In this document: piece after piece, positions 5,186 through 57,657 of the stretch
Layout: each line of letters starts with the position of its first letter
How positions within the stretch are numbered: position 1 is the first letter of the stretch
Origin: a virus
Length of the DNA stretch: 64,000 bases
Virus record (IMG/VR): IMGVR_UViG_3300032516_000004
Span: 113,942 to 177,941 of that record
Strand: one strand, 5' to 3'
Program-made: the position numbers and the translations under genes
The notes under the pieces: generated by a model
The model's database searches: none
What the model was told of the DNA's origin: nothing
What the model saw: the letters and a program-made list of their open reading frames with translations, nothing else

Positions 5186-5612
5186 TAGTATGTCCCTTTA
5201 AGGAAGGTGACGGGATAGAGCATATGTTCATCAGGTCTGTTCATTGGGGGTTTCATTTGTACTAGCGCAGCCATTGCGCTAACTTTATGTAAACAATTAC
5301 CGTGAAAGTTAGGTGAATCACTATGGACCGGCTTAATTCTCCAGGAAAGTTAGGTGAATCACTATGGACCGGCTTAATTCTCCAGTAGATGTCTGTTATA
5401 CCATGTGATTCAGCGAGTTTTACAATTTGTTGATACAGGGTCTCAATATCAACATTGTTATCGCCAAAGTATATATTTTCTGGATATCTAGTCTGAACCA
5501 TCAAGTATTTATCATCAATGCGTTGTATGCTCGCAATACCTTCAACCATTTTTAATATTTCACCCTGTTCTAGAGTGTGTTCACGTAGATGGTAGCTTTC
5601 AGTCGTTGTCAT
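5185..5612 (-). pseudogene. Hypothetical 128-aa gene frameshifted by a 41-bp tandem duplication
   Basis: Removing one copy of the duplication gives a 387-nt ORF whose stop overlaps the next ATG. Confidence 0.6.
5304..5385. repeat. Perfect 41-bp tandem direct repeat (2 copies)
   Basis: GAAAGTTAGGTGAATCACTATGGACCGGCTTAATTCTCCAG at 5304-5344 and 5345-5385. Confidence 0.95.
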
Positions 5613-18502: not shown

Positions 18503-20071
18503 ATGGCGTTTTTGCAGATTAAGCGAGACAGTATTTATTTGAGCATCGAATCTACCCCCAAGCCGATTAGACCGTTGATGTCAGAATCAAAGGGGAAGTT
18601 TGTGTATTCTATTCCGGCTTGTGTGCAGATTATCAACAACGTTAAGAAAGATCGTCGCAGATTTATGAGCCTGGACACTGATTTTTCTAGATGGCTTAAG
18701 AATAATCCAGATCCATTGTGGGATTTGCTAGATACAAAGGATAAATTTGATCGTGATGGTAAACGGCAAGATTTTGCGGTTCGCCCGCAACATATTTTAC
18801 CAATATGGTCTTATATGGATAATGACGTAAAGATTGTTAAGCAGGGAAATCAATTTTATGATGACATGGAAAAATATGATGAGGGTGGTGGTAAAGTTAC
18901 CGATTGTGATTGGATGGCGTGGACAGAGGGGAGTGGTTTTTCTAAGAGATATTTCACTTCTCGTCAAGATAGGTCACAATTTACACCACTTATTGATCCT
19001 AAACTTCTAGCACAGAAAATCCAAGTGCTGATTCAGCAGGCTTTAAGTGATTTGGTTCCATTTAAAACAGAAGATGAGATGCTTAGGTATATTTATGGTA
19101 GTGTGGTAGAAGAAGCTGCGGCGTTTCCGCATGGGGTAAATGCTCCGGCTCAGATTCCAGAGCAAACTGGTATGCCGTATAATGTTATGCCAGCGTATAT
19201 GCCTGGTGGAACCCCACCAATTCAACATGGCGCTTTGCCGACTCCACAACAATGGCAACAGCCACAGCCACAGCCACAGCCACAGCCACCACAGCAGCAA
19301 CCACAACCTCCACAGCAACAATGGTCTCCTCCTGGACCCCAACAACAGATGCCTCAGCAACAAGTGTCTCAGCAGCAATGGACCGCTCCAGTACCACAAC
19401 AAGCATGGACTCCACCAGCACCACAACAAGCGTGGACTCCACCGGTACCACAACAAACTTCACAGCCACAGTGGACACCGGTACAGCAACCACCGGCACA
19501 GCAAGCACCAGTGCAGCAGCCACCGACCCAGTGGACACCCCCACAACCTCAACAGCAGTGGACACCACCTAAAGTTGATGTGCCAAATGCACCGGTTACA
19601 TCTCAACCGGTATTTGCCCCACCAGCTCAACCATCTCAACAGGCACAACCAATGCAGGTTGGTGGACCGGGACAGGTCGTTGTAAGTGGTGGTAAACATG
19701 ATGGTAAAACTTTGGGCTGGATTAAAGACAATGACGCTAGTTATCTCTCATTTTTAAAGGGGAACAAGAAGGAACTTGCACCGGCCATCGAAGCTCTATT
19801 GGGTGGAACCCAACTACCAACACAGACACCTAGCGCTCAACCACAGGCACAACAAGTTAATCCAGATGCTGAGGCAGTAAGATCACAATTGGTAAAAGAG
19901 ATAAACCAAAAAATCATGTCTATTCCCGAATTTCAGGGGCAGGGTGTGGTAACTGCGATGATGCCGTTCTTACAACAAGTAATTGGCACTACCAAATTCT
20001 CTGATGCCCCAATTGATCAACTGCAGACTCTTAAGATGGCTGTTGATACTAAATTAGCTCCAAGAGCGTAA
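18503..20071 (+). CDS. Putative ssDNA-binding/recombination-mediator protein with long Pro/Gln-rich linker
   Basis: Globular N-terminal ~200 aa, PQ repeats, a small GGKHDGKTL..DASYL domain; immediately upstream of recA; GGAG RBS. Confidence 0.5.
   Translation: MAFLQIKRDSIYLSIESTPKPIRPLMSESKGKFVYSIPACVQIINNVKKDRRRFMSLDTDFSRWLKNNPDPLWDLLDTKDKFDRDGKRQDFAVRPQHILPIWSYMDNDVKIVKQGNQFYDDMEKYDEGGGKVTDCDWMAWTEGSGFSKRYFTSRQDRSQFTPLIDPKLLAQKIQVLIQQALSDLVPFKTEDEMLRYIYGSVVEEAAAFPHGVNAPAQIPEQTGMPYNVMPAYMPGGTPPIQHGALPTPQQWQQPQPQPQPQPPQQQPQPPQQQWSPPGPQQQMPQQQVSQQQWTAPVPQQAWTPPAPQQAWTPPVPQQTSQPQWTPVQQPPAQQAPVQQPPTQWTPPQPQQQWTPPKVDVPNAPVTSQPVFAPPAQPSQQAQPMQVGGPGQVVVSGGKHDGKTLGWIKDNDASYLSFLKGNKKELAPAIEALLGGTQLPTQTPSAQPQAQQVNPDAEAVRSQLVKEINQKIMSIPEFQGQGVVTAMMPFLQQVIGTTKFSDAPIDQLQTLKMAVDTKLAPRA
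19243..19620 (+). repeat. Coding low-complexity repeats (CAGCCA hexamers; QQ(A)WTPP units)
   Basis: Tandem CAGCCA and several CAGCAG/CAAGCA-TGGAC-C units. Confidence 0.85.
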
Positions 20072-54243: not shown

Positions 54244-54381
54244 ATGAACTGGTTTTGCTGCATAACTGGGAACTCATTCTTCGACGTTTGGACTTTGGCA
54301 CACCTGGCGTTCTGGATTTTTGTAGGGTCGTGTTTGTGGTGGCTCAAGGCCAATAAGTGGATTTCTGTTGACTTTCCTTGA
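54244..54381 (+). pseudogene. Short, apparently truncated membrane-protein ORF (45 aa)
   Basis: MNWFCCITGNSFFDVWTLAHLAFWIFVG... ends abruptly where the convergent block begins. Confidence 0.3.
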
Positions 54382-54440
54382 CTGGTTATGTCATGATATT
54401 TTATTTCATGGTTCATGTTGCCTCCGGATTAGTCTTGTTG

Positions 54441-54475
54441 GTGGACACATCAAGATTATGTTGAACGGTGCCCAC
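54441..54475 (-). ncRNA. Hairpin at the 3' end of the pentamer array transcript
   Basis: GTGGGCAC...GTGTCCAC 8-bp stem (one G-U pair) enclosing TCAA/TTGA. Confidence 0.5.
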
Positions 54476-54482
54476 TGGCTCC

Positions 54483-54630
54483 TCACCTGCCATACCAAAT
54501 TTCACCACACCCGACCGAGACCTAACCCCACCACATTACACCACACCTGCCTTACCAAACCTAGATCTACCAGACCATACCTGATTGCACCAGAGTCGAC
54601 CCGATCCGGCCTAACCTCACCCGACCTGCC
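54483..54630 (-). repeat. GGY-NN pentamer array (candidate guide RNA, VIPR-like)
   Basis: 27 period-5 units, 21 starting GGT/GGC, with a variable dinucleotide; divided by three GGCA linkers. Confidence 0.85.
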
Positions 54631-54632
54631 AC

Positions 54633-55124
54633 CTATGCCGCTCGTTTTCTAACCAAGGTAATCATTTTAAATATTTCCGCAAGTTCAACGTAATCTTCAT
54701 ATCTTTTTCGCCACTGTTCAAGTTCAGCTAACGCCTGTTTAATAACCAAACGACGAAGTTTTGGATTGTTCATCGCGTCATAGATATGAACATTTTCCCG
54801 TTTATTTTTGTGTGCACCATTTTGAATATTAACCCACATTTTAGTTGGCGCACATTTTTGACCATTGGGTAAAGTGCAAATCACAATAGAGCGTAATATG
54901 TATTTTGCTTGATCTAAACGGTACAGATCAGCCGCACGTGTATTATTCCATTCAAATGCCTTATGGAGAACGGAATTTTTCGGTTTAGCGTCTGATACAA
55001 TAATCTTTGGAGTGATTTTCCTGTGTTTCTGTCGTAAATATTCTAGTCGCTCACCTACAGTTTGTGCTGGTATGCCAACACGAACATATGGTTTCCATTG
55101 GTATTTGATTTGAATATTTAACAT
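54633..55124 (-). CDS. Accessory protein of the pentamer-array locus
   Basis: 163 aa; LHKAFEWNNTRAADLYRLDQA; coupled to the RAMP-like gene; its stop abuts the array. Confidence 0.65.
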   Translation of the reverse strand: MLNIQIKYQWKPYVRVGIPAQTVGERLEYLRQKHRKITPKIIVSDAKPKNSVLHKAFEWNNTRAADLYRLDQAKYILRSIVICTLPNGQKCAPTKMWVNIQNGAHKNKRENVHIYDAMNNPKLRRLVIKQALAELEQWRKRYEDYVELAEIFKMITLVRKRAA

Positions 55125-55756
55125 TATGCTGCCTTCTTGTTTGATCTCTTAGATTTAATGCTTTCAATGTGAAATAGACCGAAACTATCACCACATTGTT
55201 GTGGGCGGCGTTCAGCAACTCCCATAGTCTTACCAGCCAAATTAAGAAGATTAATAATATGTTCTGGAGAAATAATGTTTGGATTATATTGAATTGTTAA
55301 TTCCACTTCCCACTCAGGAAATTCAGCCCTATATCTCAAATCAGTAGCCCCCGTACTAAGTCTTACAACATCCTCCCGCATATGCTTCTTACCAATAATC
55401 TGGGCGTATTCACCCAGGATATAAAATGCGCCGCGCACACTTGTTTTTGTGACATTTGCACAGTGCGTGCAGGCATTAATAGCGGCTGTCTTAAAACTAA
55501 TACAACGGATAAAATCGCCCCTGTGACCATCAACCTTATATGTAGAATTTTCATATTCTGTTACGGGATCTTTATCTGGCCTACCACCAACCTGAACACC
55601 TTTGCTTTTCTTTTGCATAGAAGCCAGTAGTTGTTTTCTATGTTTTTCACTCATAGCATGCATAATTAGTGGTGAGTCGCCAACGGCTTTTACGACCATC
55701 ATTTCTGTACGTGGTGGCTCAACAATAATAAATTCTTGTTTTTTACCAAACGCCAT
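55124..55756 (-). CDS. RAMP/Cas7-like RNA-binding protein (Vipr-like)
   Basis: N-terminal VKAVGDSPLIMH strand, LRYRAEFPEWEVELTI, C-terminal Gly-rich loop AGKTMGVAERRP..GDSFGLF; AGGAGG RBS. Confidence 0.65.
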   Translation of the reverse strand: MAFGKKQEFIIVEPPRTEMMVVKAVGDSPLIMHAMSEKHRKQLLASMQKKSKGVQVGGRPDKDPVTEYENSTYKVDGHRGDFIRCISFKTAAINACTHCANVTKTSVRGAFYILGEYAQIIGKKHMREDVVRLSTGATDLRYRAEFPEWEVELTIQYNPNIISPEHIINLLNLAGKTMGVAERRPQQCGDSFGLFHIESIKSKRSNKKAA

Positions 55757-55776
55757 GATTTAATCCTCCTATATGT

Positions 55777-57657
55777 TTACGATACCATCTTTACAAATTC
55801 GTTCTCAGACACACATTTCGTTCCGAGCTTCCGTGCTTTTTCAGCCTTAGAACTGGTACTGTTTGAGTCCGCCATTACCAGCATTGTCAATCCGGCACCA
55901 ACAGAGTTTTTGACCTCTAGCCCAGCCGCCTCGGCCATTTCTGATAGTTCTTTGCGTGAATGTGACGACTTCCCGGTAAAGCATACACTTTGACCATTCA
56001 ATTTCCCCATTTTAGGCTCCTTAATTGTTACGTGTTTAACGAGTTCACGAATTACTGGTTCCAATTGTTTAATCCCTCGACTAATAAATTTTGCCTTTAC
56101 TGGTCCAATACCAGGAATCGCTGCAAGGGTCGTGCTATCTAGAGCTAGAAACTTATCTGCAGTATCGTAACCAGCTGACACTATGTCACGACTCGTTGTT
56201 TGACACTGCCTAATGTTGAGTGCCGTAATAAATTGAACCATAGACATCCTTTCATGTTCTTTCAGAGATACCATCGCTCTAGTTGCAATACCACCACCAT
56301 GTTCAACACTAAATCGATCCCACTTGATCTTGTAAATGTCCGGAAGAGTTTTCACATATTCACCATCAATTAGTTGGTCGATTAGGGCGTCTCCCCAATG
56401 GAGAACATCAAGTCTTTCAGTCCATACCTTGACGGCACTATGAAGCACTGATGGACATAGTCCGTTATTGCATTGTAGATATTCACCATCCCAATCCAAG
56501 AGTTCACTACAAACTGGACACCCTCGTGGTACTTCAACCTTTACTGGTGTAAGAACTTCTTCAACATATGGGATCACATCATTCCGACGACTGACCAAAA
56601 CTTTGGAACCTGGTCCTGCTTTCAATTCAACGGCCATCTTGGCGGTATGCAGGGACACTCTGCTAATTGTTACACCCCCAATATCCACCGCCTCCAATTC
56701 AGCAACTGGACACACACGACCAATACGTCCCACTTGCCACACGATATTTTTTACAGTCGTAACTTTTGTCTCTGGTGGCGGTTTATACGCGATAGCACCA
56801 CGAGGTCGCATATCTAGATCACCTAGACTATCAAATGTTTCTTGGTTGTCGATTCGAACCACCAAACCATCAATTTCGTATGGGATCTTGTCACGTTCCT
56901 TAAGTCGATCTTCTACCCATTTGGGAACATCAGCACCTTTGCAAAATCCATAGTTAGGAACCTGGAGACCCAGGGTCTTTAGGAAACACAATTGGTCAAC
57001 GTGGGTTGGCAGTTTTACGTCGCCGATTACCTCATAAAAGATAACTGTCAAATGCTGACAACCACTACCATCCAACCGTTTAGCGGTTCCAGAACAGCCA
57101 TTTCGTGGGTTTTTCATGTCTGGCATATGACGAAGCCAGTCTTCTTTCAGCAACACAATCTCACCACGAAGTGACCCAGTGAATGGTTCTGGCAGAATCC
57201 GCCGAACACCCTTCATTTTCAAGACATTCTGACTGATATCTTCTCCTTGATATCCATTTCCTCTGGTAGATGCTACTTGGAACGATCCCTTCAAATATTC
57301 TACTTCGATTGAAATGCCGTCTAGTTTATCGGTAATGCTGTATGTGGTCTTGGGATCAAGTTTATTGGCCCATTTAACAAATTCTTGTTCATTTTGAGCC
57401 TTGTCCAACGAACCCATAGGGATTACATGCTGATGCTTCTCCCAGGCACTTGCTGGTTCTGCTCCGACCCTCTTTAACACTTGGTGGTCAGCGTCCAATT
57501 TGCGGAGTTCACTTTCTAGAGCATCATATTCATCATCTGACATTGACGGAGTGCCATTATAGTATTCGTCACGAGCCACCAAAATCTGGTTGGCAAGTTT
57601 ATCAACATATTCTTTCATTTTGAGATACATCTCATGTTCAGCGTCTCTATTGTTCAT
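55777..57657 (-). CDS. ligA: NAD+-dependent DNA ligase
   Basis: KLDG adenylation motif, RGNG, YEIDGLV, AIAYK, Zn finger, HhH, C-terminal BRCT. Confidence 0.95.
   Translation of the reverse strand: MNNRDAEHEMYLKMKEYVDKLANQILVARDEYYNGTPSMSDDEYDALESELRKLDADHQVLKRVGAEPASAWEKHQHVIPMGSLDKAQNEQEFVKWANKLDPKTTYSITDKLDGISIEVEYLKGSFQVASTRGNGYQGEDISQNVLKMKGVRRILPEPFTGSLRGEIVLLKEDWLRHMPDMKNPRNGCSGTAKRLDGSGCQHLTVIFYEVIGDVKLPTHVDQLCFLKTLGLQVPNYGFCKGADVPKWVEDRLKERDKIPYEIDGLVVRIDNQETFDSLGDLDMRPRGAIAYKPPPETKVTTVKNIVWQVGRIGRVCPVAELEAVDIGGVTISRVSLHTAKMAVELKAGPGSKVLVSRRNDVIPYVEEVLTPVKVEVPRGCPVCSELLDWDGEYLQCNNGLCPSVLHSAVKVWTERLDVLHWGDALIDQLIDGEYVKTLPDIYKIKWDRFSVEHGGGIATRAMVSLKEHERMSMVQFITALNIRQCQTTSRDIVSAGYDTADKFLALDSTTLAAIPGIGPVKAKFISRGIKQLEPVIRELVKHVTIKEPKMGKLNGQSVCFTGKSSHSRKELSEMAEAAGLEVKNSVGAGLTMLVMADSNSTSSKAEKARKLGTKCVSENEFVKMVS

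What the first reader, a model, noticed from the sequence alone, without database searches (positions are those of the whole stretch)
54441..55756. RAMP/Cas7-like gene plus accessory gene plus GGY-NN pentamer array: a non-CRISPR, probably RNA-guided module
Seen in sequence: on the minus strand the operon runs ligA, a 210-aa gene, a 163-aa gene, then a 148-nt period-5 array starting 2 nt after the stop, then a hairpin. 21 of 27 units are GGT/GGC plus a variable dinucleotide. The 210-aa protein has a RAMP-like N-terminal strand (GDSPLIMH) and a C-terminal Gly-rich loop like Cas7/Csm3. No cas1/2/3 gene or CRISPR repeat is present in the window. Inference: protein subunits bind the constant trinucleotides and display the NN pairs to read a gapped target, for example for transcriptional silencing of competing phages or host genes. 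This matches my recollection of recently reported VIPR systems, which should be verified; if so, this is a new member in a jumbo phage.
Basis: partly seen in the sequence, partly recalled or inferred. Interest (0 to 1): 0.9.

Follow-up and report, generated by a model that had tools for sequence, protein, structure and literature searches.

The report
Phage VIPR guide-RNA system, staggered array
This uncultured 178-kb sediment phage carries a real VIPR system, the CRISPR-related DNA-silencing system first described in 2026 preprints: a small Cas7-like protein, a partner gene and two guide RNAs built from GGY-NN five-base repeats. It is a new example of a known kind, and what it targets is still unknown.

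Summary
On the minus strand ligA is followed by a 210-aa gene, a 163-aa gene overlapping it by 1 nt, a 149-nt period-5 tract starting 2 nt after the stop, and a hairpin.

- **Array:** it is the only such tract in the complete 177.9-kb genome.
- **Relatives:** of 80 viral loci, 71 carry GGY period-5 arrays, always on the vipr strand, and 74 carry the same partner gene. Across 3073 units GGY is fixed and NN is near-random.
- **Architecture:** arrays of this clade are continuous runs punctuated by a 4-nt GGCA unit. This fits the paper's 'staggered arrays', not the tailed type II guides of SUSP1. Here that gives two guides, of 15 and 11 units.
- **Partner gene:** it shows no detectable similarity to SUSP1 vap1 and has no known fold.
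- **Open points:** no target was found and no RNA data exist. The genome is below jumbo size.

This scan has already reported VIPR loci in over 100 other genomes. A second, different RAMP-plus-pentamer locus lies elsewhere in this genome.

The parts
55777..57657 (-). NAD-dependent DNA ligase gene (ligA). It is the upstream neighbour in the same orientation and probably shares a transcript with the VIPR genes.
   Evidence: phrog_3869 E 1.6e-146. There are 20 nt with AGGAGG between its stop and the vipr start. No promoter-like site above shuffle expectation lies between the genes.
55124..55756 (-). vipr: a 210-aa Vipr (minimal Cas7-like RAMP) protein.
   Evidence: The family profile A1 matches PDB 36pp_D 'SUSP1 Vipr protein', E 2.5e-11, over the full length. 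hhalign against SUSP1 Vipr gives 97.9% probability. The AF2 model has pLDDT 86. Foldseek and VIA-align match Csm3. It falls in phrog_4652. H33, R143, E182 and R184 align with the SUSP1 GGY-contact residues.
54633..55124 (-). vap: a 163-aa accessory gene, translationally coupled to vipr through a TAATG overlap.
   Evidence: A homolog lies next to vipr in 74 of 80 viral loci. It falls in phrog_15946. The AF2 model has pLDDT 89. No significant PDB match was found. Its nearest ESM Atlas clusters are viral hypothetical proteins, TM 0.85. No similarity to SUSP1 vap1 was detected.
54482..54630 (-). The whole GGY-NN period-5 tract (vrRNA array).
54627..54630 (-). First 4-nt GGCA punctuation unit (register shift); predicted start border of guide A.
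   Evidence: GGCA makes up 295 of 398 four-nt steps in relatives' arrays. GGCAGGY is present in 68 of 69 loci that have arrays.
54552..54626 (-). Predicted vrRNA guide A: 15 units. NN = CG GA TA CG CG CG CT GC CA AT CT AG TA TT AA.
   Evidence: Parse. At 79 nt mark to mark it is longer than the family mode of 44-59 nt.
54548..54551 (-). Second GGCA punctuation unit.
54492..54547 (-). Predicted vrRNA guide B: 11 units, one of them 6 nt (GGTCTC). NN = GT GT GT GG TA CT(C) CG GT GA TT AT.
54488..54491 (-). Third GGCA punctuation unit, which closes guide B.
54441..54487 (-). Array end: two residual units (GGTGA, GGAGC), then an 8-bp hairpin (GTGGGCAC / GTGTCCAC, 19-nt loop) with no T-run.
   Evidence: Sequence. 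The hairpin appears in the minimum-free-energy fold. Relatives' arrays also end in a hairpin. It is not called as an intrinsic terminator.

Best explanation
This is a VIPR (Viral Interference Programmable Repeat) locus.

**How it most likely works (inferred).**
1. The array is transcribed with, or just after, ligA-vipr-vap.
2. The transcript is cut at or near the GGCA register shifts into two vrRNAs, of 15 and 11 repeats.
3. One Vipr protomer binds each repeat and sequesters the GGY bases. The residues doing this are H33, R143, E182, R183 and R184, the counterparts of SUSP1 H17, R138, D177, W178 and R179.
4. The NN pairs are displayed and read double-stranded DNA with one skipped base per unit (target NNxNNx...).
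5. The filament blocks transcription of the target, most likely a competing phage, satellite or other mobile element in the unknown host.
6. The 163-aa Vap acts as an accessory factor of unknown activity.

**What is shown here.** Homology to the characterised Vipr protein, the RAMP fold, the array and its statistics, the family-wide linkage of vipr, vap and array, the fixed GGY with variable NN, and the punctuated architecture.

**What is inferred from the SUSP1 and P. fulva work.** Transcription, processing, filament formation, the 1-nt skip code, silencing and the class of target.
For: **Protein**
- The A1 profile matches SUSP1 Vipr (PDB 36pp_D), E 2.5e-11, covering profile positions 19-193 and chain residues 2-188.
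- The same profile finds the SUSP1 vipr gene in KT454805.2, E 6.3e-14.
- Contact residues across 176 family members: R143 in 176, R184 in 174, E or D at 182 in 173, and H33 in 139.

**Array**
- It is unique in the genome.
- Of the 80 related IMG/VR loci, 71 have GGY period-5 arrays on the vipr strand and none on the other strand.
- Unit logo over 3073 units: G 96%, G 85%, Y 95%, N4 1.93 bits, N5 1.96 bits.
- The closest locus, L082 (vap 71% identical), carries at least four guides with entirely different NN.
- GGCA punctuation spacing peaks at 44, 49, 54 and 59 nt. This matches the text description of staggered arrays with 1-nt overlap (fig. S18 legend).
- The array RNA is no more structured than shuffled sequence (z = +0.33), as expected for a protein-bound scaffold.

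**Context**
- No self-target: the best match is 20 of 30 positions, equal to the null. The paper reports the same for its systems.
- No Cas1 in the genome and no CRISPR-like repeats in the window.
Against: - **No target found.** Exact 1-nt-skip patterns from both guides gave nothing in viral contigs or genome contigs.
- **One metagenome hit that looks like chance.** The single match lies in a roughly 68% GC bacterial outer-membrane-protein gene. The masked unit does not match, and the matching segment is low-complexity GTCGTCGTC.
- **No direct evidence of expression.** Nothing here shows expression, processing or protein binding.
- **Degenerate units.** Six of 26 units lack GG, and five of those six also lack G1, a position that is 96% G in the family.
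- **Guide A is unusually long** for the clade.
- **Substituted stacking residue.** The Trp that stacks on G2 in SUSP1 is Arg here, although Arg occurs in 13 of 176 relatives.
- **No conserved tail.** Unlike type II vrRNAs, these guides have no conserved 3' tail or pseudoknot, so how they would be processed is not known.
Confidence: 0.85

Rival explanations
1. The locus is a decaying or inactive VIPR remnant. The genes and array descend from a VIPR system but no longer form a working complex or have a live target.
For: - Six of 26 units are degenerate, most without G1.
- One unit is 6 nt long.
- The G2-stacking Trp is replaced by Arg.
- No target was found in any collection.
Against: - Both ORFs are intact and translationally coupled.
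- All other contact residues are kept.
- A degenerate-unit share of 22% is the family median.
- Arg at this position recurs in 13 of 176 relatives, and the closest locus L082 also has it alongside a long, well-formed array.
- Exact-match scans miss the 80-99% matches that the papers accept as targets.
Confidence: 0.07
2. The complex targets RNA rather than DNA, as the structurally closest solved proteins (the Csm3 backbone subunits of type III CRISPR) do.
For: The top structural matches are all Csm3 or type VII Cas7. DNA targeting has been shown only for type II systems.
Against: Homology to SUSP1 Vipr is far closer than to any Csm3: a sequence-level E of 2.5e-11 against about 10% identity. 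The paper reports that the vap genes of all types appear to be involved in DNA interaction. No Cas10-like or other type III partner gene is adjacent.
Confidence: 0.05
3. The period-5 tract is a DNA-level or incidental element (protein-binding phasing, bent DNA or slippage product) that is unrelated to the adjacent genes.
For: No transcription data exist. The tract sits inside a DNA replication and repair gene block.
Against: Of the 80 loci found through the protein alone, 71 carry the same kind of tract, always on the gene's strand. Its unit logo equals the published vrRNA consensus. Period 5 with fixed GGY and random NN is not what slippage produces.
Confidence: 0.02

Closest known systems
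VIPR systems with 'staggered' vrRNA arrays (bioRxiv 10.64898/2026.04.26.720920, fig. S18; type number not stated in the text held)
   Same: The locus has a Vipr protein and a vap gene. Its array is one continuous GGY-NN run in which one guide ends where the next starts. Reading the GGCAGGY junction as GGCAG overlapping GGYNN by one G fits the legend's '1 nt overlapping positions'.
   Different: The figure itself could not be seen, so the identity of the architecture rests on the legend text. This locus has only two guides, one unusually long (15 units). Its degenerate units are AAT/GAT/ACT/ATC, whereas the family's usual degenerate form is GTY.
Type II VIPR of Escherichia phage SUSP1 (KT454805.2; PDB 36pp) and the Pseudomonas fulva prophage
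   Same: - The Vipr proteins are homologous.
- The GGY-contact residues are shared.
- Both use GGY-NN repeats.
- Both have a two-gene vipr-vap operon with the array downstream.
- Both lie directly downstream of a DNA ligase gene.
   Different: - SUSP1 has separate vrRNAs, each with its own leader and a conserved pseudoknot tail, and no GGCAGGY marks.
- SUSP1 also has one vrRNA upstream of vipr; here there is none.
- The vap here shows no detectable similarity to vap1.
- The Vipr proteins are only distantly related (single-sequence E 0.006).
- W178 of SUSP1 is Arg here.
Csm3/Cas7 backbone subunits of type III and type VII CRISPR-Cas effectors
   Different: Sequence identity is about 10%. There is no Cas10, Csm2, Csm4 or Csm5, no Cas6, no Cas1 or Cas2 and no CRISPR array. 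The guide is a pentamer repeat, not a spacer flanked by repeats.

Membership tests
VIPR system | Protein homologous to an experimentally characterised Vipr | tested here: met
   The A1 profile matches PDB 36pp_D (SUSP1 Vipr), E 2.5e-11, over the full length. hhalign gives 97.9% probability. The profile finds SUSP1 vipr in KT454805.2, E 6.3e-14.
VIPR system | Residues that hold G1, G2 and Y3 of the repeat (SUSP1 H17, R138, D177, W178, R179) | tested here: met
   The counterparts are H33, R143, E182 and R184. W178 is Arg183 here, a variant seen in 13 of 176 relatives. The mapping is by alignment, not by structure.
VIPR system | YNNGG (GGY-NN) tandem repeats, at least 4 units, next to vipr | tested here: met
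   Of 29 units, 23 start with GGY, and the tract begins 2 nt after the vap stop on the same strand. It is unique in the genome.
VIPR system | GGY conserved and NN hypervariable among related loci | tested here: met
   Over 3073 units from 86 arrays: G 96%, G 85%, Y 95%, NN entropy 1.93 and 1.96 bits, all 16 dinucleotides used. L082 (vap 71% identical) has unrelated NN.
VIPR system | Accessory vap gene in a minimal locus, without cas genes or a CRISPR array | tested here: met
   A vap homolog lies beside vipr in 74 of 80 loci. The genome has no Cas1. The window has no CRISPR-like repeats.
VIPR system | vrRNAs expressed, processed and bound by Vipr | not testable with these tools
   The only sequencing run holding this DNA is a sediment metagenome DNA run.
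VIPR system | Natural target matching the guide under the 1-nt skip rule (at least 80% NN match) | tested here: inconclusive
   Only exact patterns could be scanned in the public collections. They gave 0 hits, apart from one probable chance hit. There is no self-target.
VIPR type II (SUSP1 clade) | Separate vrRNAs, each with a conserved 3' tail or pseudoknot, plus a vap1 accessory gene | tested here: not met
   The array here is continuous and GGCA-punctuated, with one terminal hairpin, whereas SUSP1 has tailed units. The vap family A2 against SUSP1 vap1 gives E 0.72.
CRISPR-Cas type III | Cas10 and Csm/Cmr partner subunits, a CRISPR array and Cas6 processing | tested here: not met
   None of these is adjacent. 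The window has no CRISPR repeats. The genome has no Cas1. PADLOC gives no hit for either protein.

The most novel reading that the evidence does not exclude
The phage may carry two unrelated RAMP-plus-pentamer-array modules that work side by side with different RNA scaffolds. One is the GGY-NN VIPR described here.

**The second locus** is at genome 21966-22634 on the minus strand.
- It encodes a 222-aa protein whose family profile matches only CRISPR RAMP G-loops among solved structures.
- It is followed by short cassettes of about 33 nt made of NNNCC/NNNYC pentamers. Read on the other strand these are GGNNN.
- The cassettes are delimited by GAC-containing motifs here (TATGAC, TTTGAC, GCGAC) and by GCGAC in the two relatives.

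If both are active, one virus would run two orthogonal guide codes.
Probability: 0.35. Interest if true: 0.6.

Novelty: new member of a known kind. Interest (0 to 1): 0.3.

Why it matters
**What it adds.**
- VIPR is a very recent discovery and only type II members have been studied at the bench.
- This locus is a clean, compact example (about 1.3 kb) of the non-type-II, GGCA-punctuated array architecture. It comes from a large environmental phage.
- It has a different accessory protein of unknown fold, and a natural Arg variant at the position of the guanine-stacking Trp.
- It could therefore serve to test three things: how tail-less staggered guides are processed, what this vap family does, and how strictly the GGY scaffold is read.

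**What it does not add.** It does not change what is known about the system. The family is large (2687 representative clusters), and this scan has already reported VIPR loci in more than 100 genomes.

Tried and rejected
**Target search**
- Exact 1-nt-skip patterns were scanned in three collections. The patterns were guide A with degenerate units masked, guide A units 1-10 and 6-15, guide B, and guide B with its 6-nt unit masked.
- Viral contigs gave 0 hits. Genome contigs gave 0 hits.
- Metagenome contigs gave 0 hits and 1 hit. I reject that hit as chance. It lies in a high-GC bacterial outer-membrane-protein gene, in a low-complexity GTCGTCGTC stretch. The wildcard falls on codon position 1 and the masked unit does not match.
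- The collections cannot be scanned with mismatches, so the papers' 80% criterion was not applied.
- Self-target scan: best 20 of 30, equal to the shuffled null.
- Reading the guides as codon first-two letters and scanning the six-frame genome: best 8 of 15, equal to the null.
- Cross-targeting among 247 guides from related loci against 1.6 Mb of related DNA: 28 matches at 0.85 or above, against 23 in the null.
- Two relatives' guides scanned exactly in viral contigs: 0 hits.

**Other searches with no result**
- Megablast of the locus against GenBank phages: no match.
- Pfam, NCBIfam and PADLOC: nothing for either protein.
- Rfam: nothing, and no hammerhead.
- Tandem Repeats Finder: nothing.
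- Vipr-Vap complex prediction: no verdict.
- Sequencing runs: no RNA holder listed.
- Relatives of a virus record cannot be drawn.
- The VIPR type number could not be assigned, because the figures and data tables of the paper are not held.
- A ligase next to vipr is not a clade feature: 0 of 80 loci.

Full report
**Observation**

On the minus strand the window holds the following features:
- ligA at 55777-57657 (phrog_3869, E 1.6e-146).
- After 20 nt that contain AGGAGG, a 210-aa ORF at 55124-55756.
- A 163-aa ORF at 54633-55124, whose ATG overlaps the previous stop (TAATG).
- Two nt after its TAG, a tract of five-base units at 54482-54630.
- An 8-bp hairpin at 54441-54475, followed 24 nt later by the ATG of a 79-aa ORF with no known family.

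A dynamic-programming parse gives 29 units, 23 of which start with GGY. The tract has 13 GGY-5-GGY pairs per 150 nt, against at most 3 anywhere else in the window. It is the only such tract in the 177,941-bp genome. Period 5 cannot be coding, so the overlapping plus-strand ORF (54368-54652) is spurious.

The genome has a 136-bp terminal overlap and is rated 100% complete. It is therefore a large phage but not a jumbo one. It comes from a sediment metagenome and has no close relative among GenBank phages. The best ligA match there is 30% identical.

**The 210-aa protein**

Pfam finds nothing. PHROGs places the protein in phrog_4652, of unknown function.
- By single sequence, the only PDB match is 'SUSP1 Vipr protein', 36pp_D, at E 0.006.
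- A profile of 27 homologs (A1) raises this to E 2.5e-11 over essentially the whole chain.
- The same profile finds the vipr gene in phage SUSP1, KT454805.2, at E 6.3e-14. hhalign gives 97.9% probability.
- The AlphaFold model (pLDDT 86) matches only Csm3/Cas7-type RAMPs at E <= 0.001 in Foldseek (64 hits).

The cryo-EM paper names the residues that hold the GGY bases: H17, R138, D177, W178 and R179. By alignment these are H33, R143, E182, R183 and R184 here. In 176 family members R143 is invariant, R184 is present in 174, E or D at 182 in 173, and H33 in 139. The Trp position is W in 107 and R in 13. The Arg here is therefore a recurrent natural variant.

The family is large: 2687 representative clusters at E <= 0.001. 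Among isolated phages it occurs in Gordonia and Mycobacterium phages and one cyanophage.

**Linkage of gene and array**

I fetched 80 IMG/VR loci through the protein alone.
- 71 carry GGY period-5 arrays, all on the vipr strand and none on the other strand.
- 74 encode a homolog of the 163-aa protein beside vipr.
- Over 3073 five-nt units the composition is G 96%, G 85%, Y 95%. The two N positions have 1.93 and 1.96 bits of entropy, and all 16 dinucleotides are used.
- The closest locus, L082, has a vap 71% identical and the same GVAERRP loop. It carries at least four guides whose NN share nothing with ours.

**Architecture**

In this clade the arrays are continuous and are punctuated by a 4-nt unit.
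- GGCA accounts for 295 of 398 four-nt steps.
- GGCAGGY occurs in 68 of 69 loci with arrays.
- The spacing between marks peaks at 44, 49, 54 and 59 nt, that is 5n+4.

In the window the mark occurs three times. That gives guide A (15 units, 54552-54626) and guide B (11 units, one of them 6 nt, 54492-54547), followed by two residual units and the hairpin.

SUSP1, the type II reference, is different. Each of its vrRNAs has its own leader and pseudoknot tail, and there is no GGCAGGY. The array RNA here is no more structured than shuffled sequence (z = +0.33) and matches no Rfam family.

The degenerate-unit share here (6 of 26) equals the family median of 22%. The forms differ, though: AAT, GAT, ACT and ATC here, against mostly GTY in the family. 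All six keep the pyrimidine at position 3.

**The 163-aa protein**

**Mechanism**

From homology I infer the published mechanism. One Vipr protomer binds per repeat and GGY is sequestered. The NN pairs then read DNA with one skipped base per unit, and transcription of a competing element is silenced. None of these steps is shown for this locus.

**Targets**

- There is no self-target, as the paper also reports for its systems.
- Exact-pattern scans of the viral, genome and metagenome collections found nothing credible.
- Mismatch-tolerant scanning of those collections is not possible with these tools.

Target and host therefore remain unknown.

**Comparison and novelty**

This is a member of the VIPR family and not of type II. 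Its type number cannot be read from the text held. The scan's own records list 115 VIPR-type findings in at least 101 genomes. The finding is real and correctly interpreted, but it is a new member of a known kind.

**Beyond the finding**

- Its family has 66 or more homologs.
- Its family profile matches only CRISPR RAMP G-loops in the PDB: Csm4 at E 0.04, then type VII Cas7 and Cmr6.
- It aligns only weakly with the Vipr family (hhalign E 0.0015, probability 17%).
- It and two relatives are followed by non-coding cassettes of NNNCC-type pentamers delimited by GCGAC-like motifs.

I followed this only in part.

Noticed in passing
L081:1967-2635 (-), which is genome G000:C1:21966-22634; the array lies at about genome 21745-21960: A second RAMP-like gene (222 aa, G-loop LGIGSDRSQGYGK) lies in the same phage, outside the window.
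- Its family profile A3 matches only CRISPR RAMPs in the PDB (Csm4 E 0.04, type VII Cas7, Cmr6). PADLOC gives Csm4 at E 0.007.
- Similarity to the Vipr family is weak (hhalign E 0.0015).
- Downstream are cassettes of about 33 nt made of NNNCC/NNNYC pentamers (GGNNN on the other strand), delimited by GAC-containing motifs such as TATGAC, TTTGAC and GCGAC, then a perfect 12-bp hairpin.
- Homolog loci L088 and L089 show the same kind of cassettes.
- Which strand is transcribed is open.
   Followed up: partly
L087 (KT454805.2 26500-30500) compared with window 54441-57657: In phage SUSP1 the VIPR locus also lies directly downstream of a DNA ligase gene, in the order ligase, vipr, vap, array, as it does here. 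None of the 80 closer relatives has a LigA-like gene within 4 kb, so this is probably coincidence.
   Followed up: yes
window 54482-54630 and the arrays of L001-L080 and L082: Units that lose the GG still keep a pyrimidine at position 3: 6 of 6 here, 10 of 11 in L082, and 77% across the family. This suggests the Y3 pocket is the most strictly read position. What such units do in a guide is unexplained.
   Followed up: partly
window 5304-5385: A perfect tandem duplication of a 41-nt unit.
   Followed up: no
window 19322-19555: Five copies of a 24-nt TGGAC.CC.CC...CCACAACAA motif, mostly 27 nt apart. It is probably a coding peptide repeat.
   Followed up: no
genome G000:C1 1-136 and 177806-177941: The first 136 bases recur at the very end of the contig. 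The record is a complete, circularly permuted or terminally redundant genome of about 177.8 kb, although IMG/VR lists it as linear.
   Followed up: partly
L025 about 2520-2580 and L029 about 5370-5420: In the two loci whose vap is among the three most similar to ours of the 80 IMG/VR loci, the arrays end in a shared tail of about 55 nt: a GGCGATGGGGA...TCGC hairpin followed by TTGCAACC.AATAGC.CATGCGCTAGT. The window's array end shows no likeness to it.
   Followed up: no
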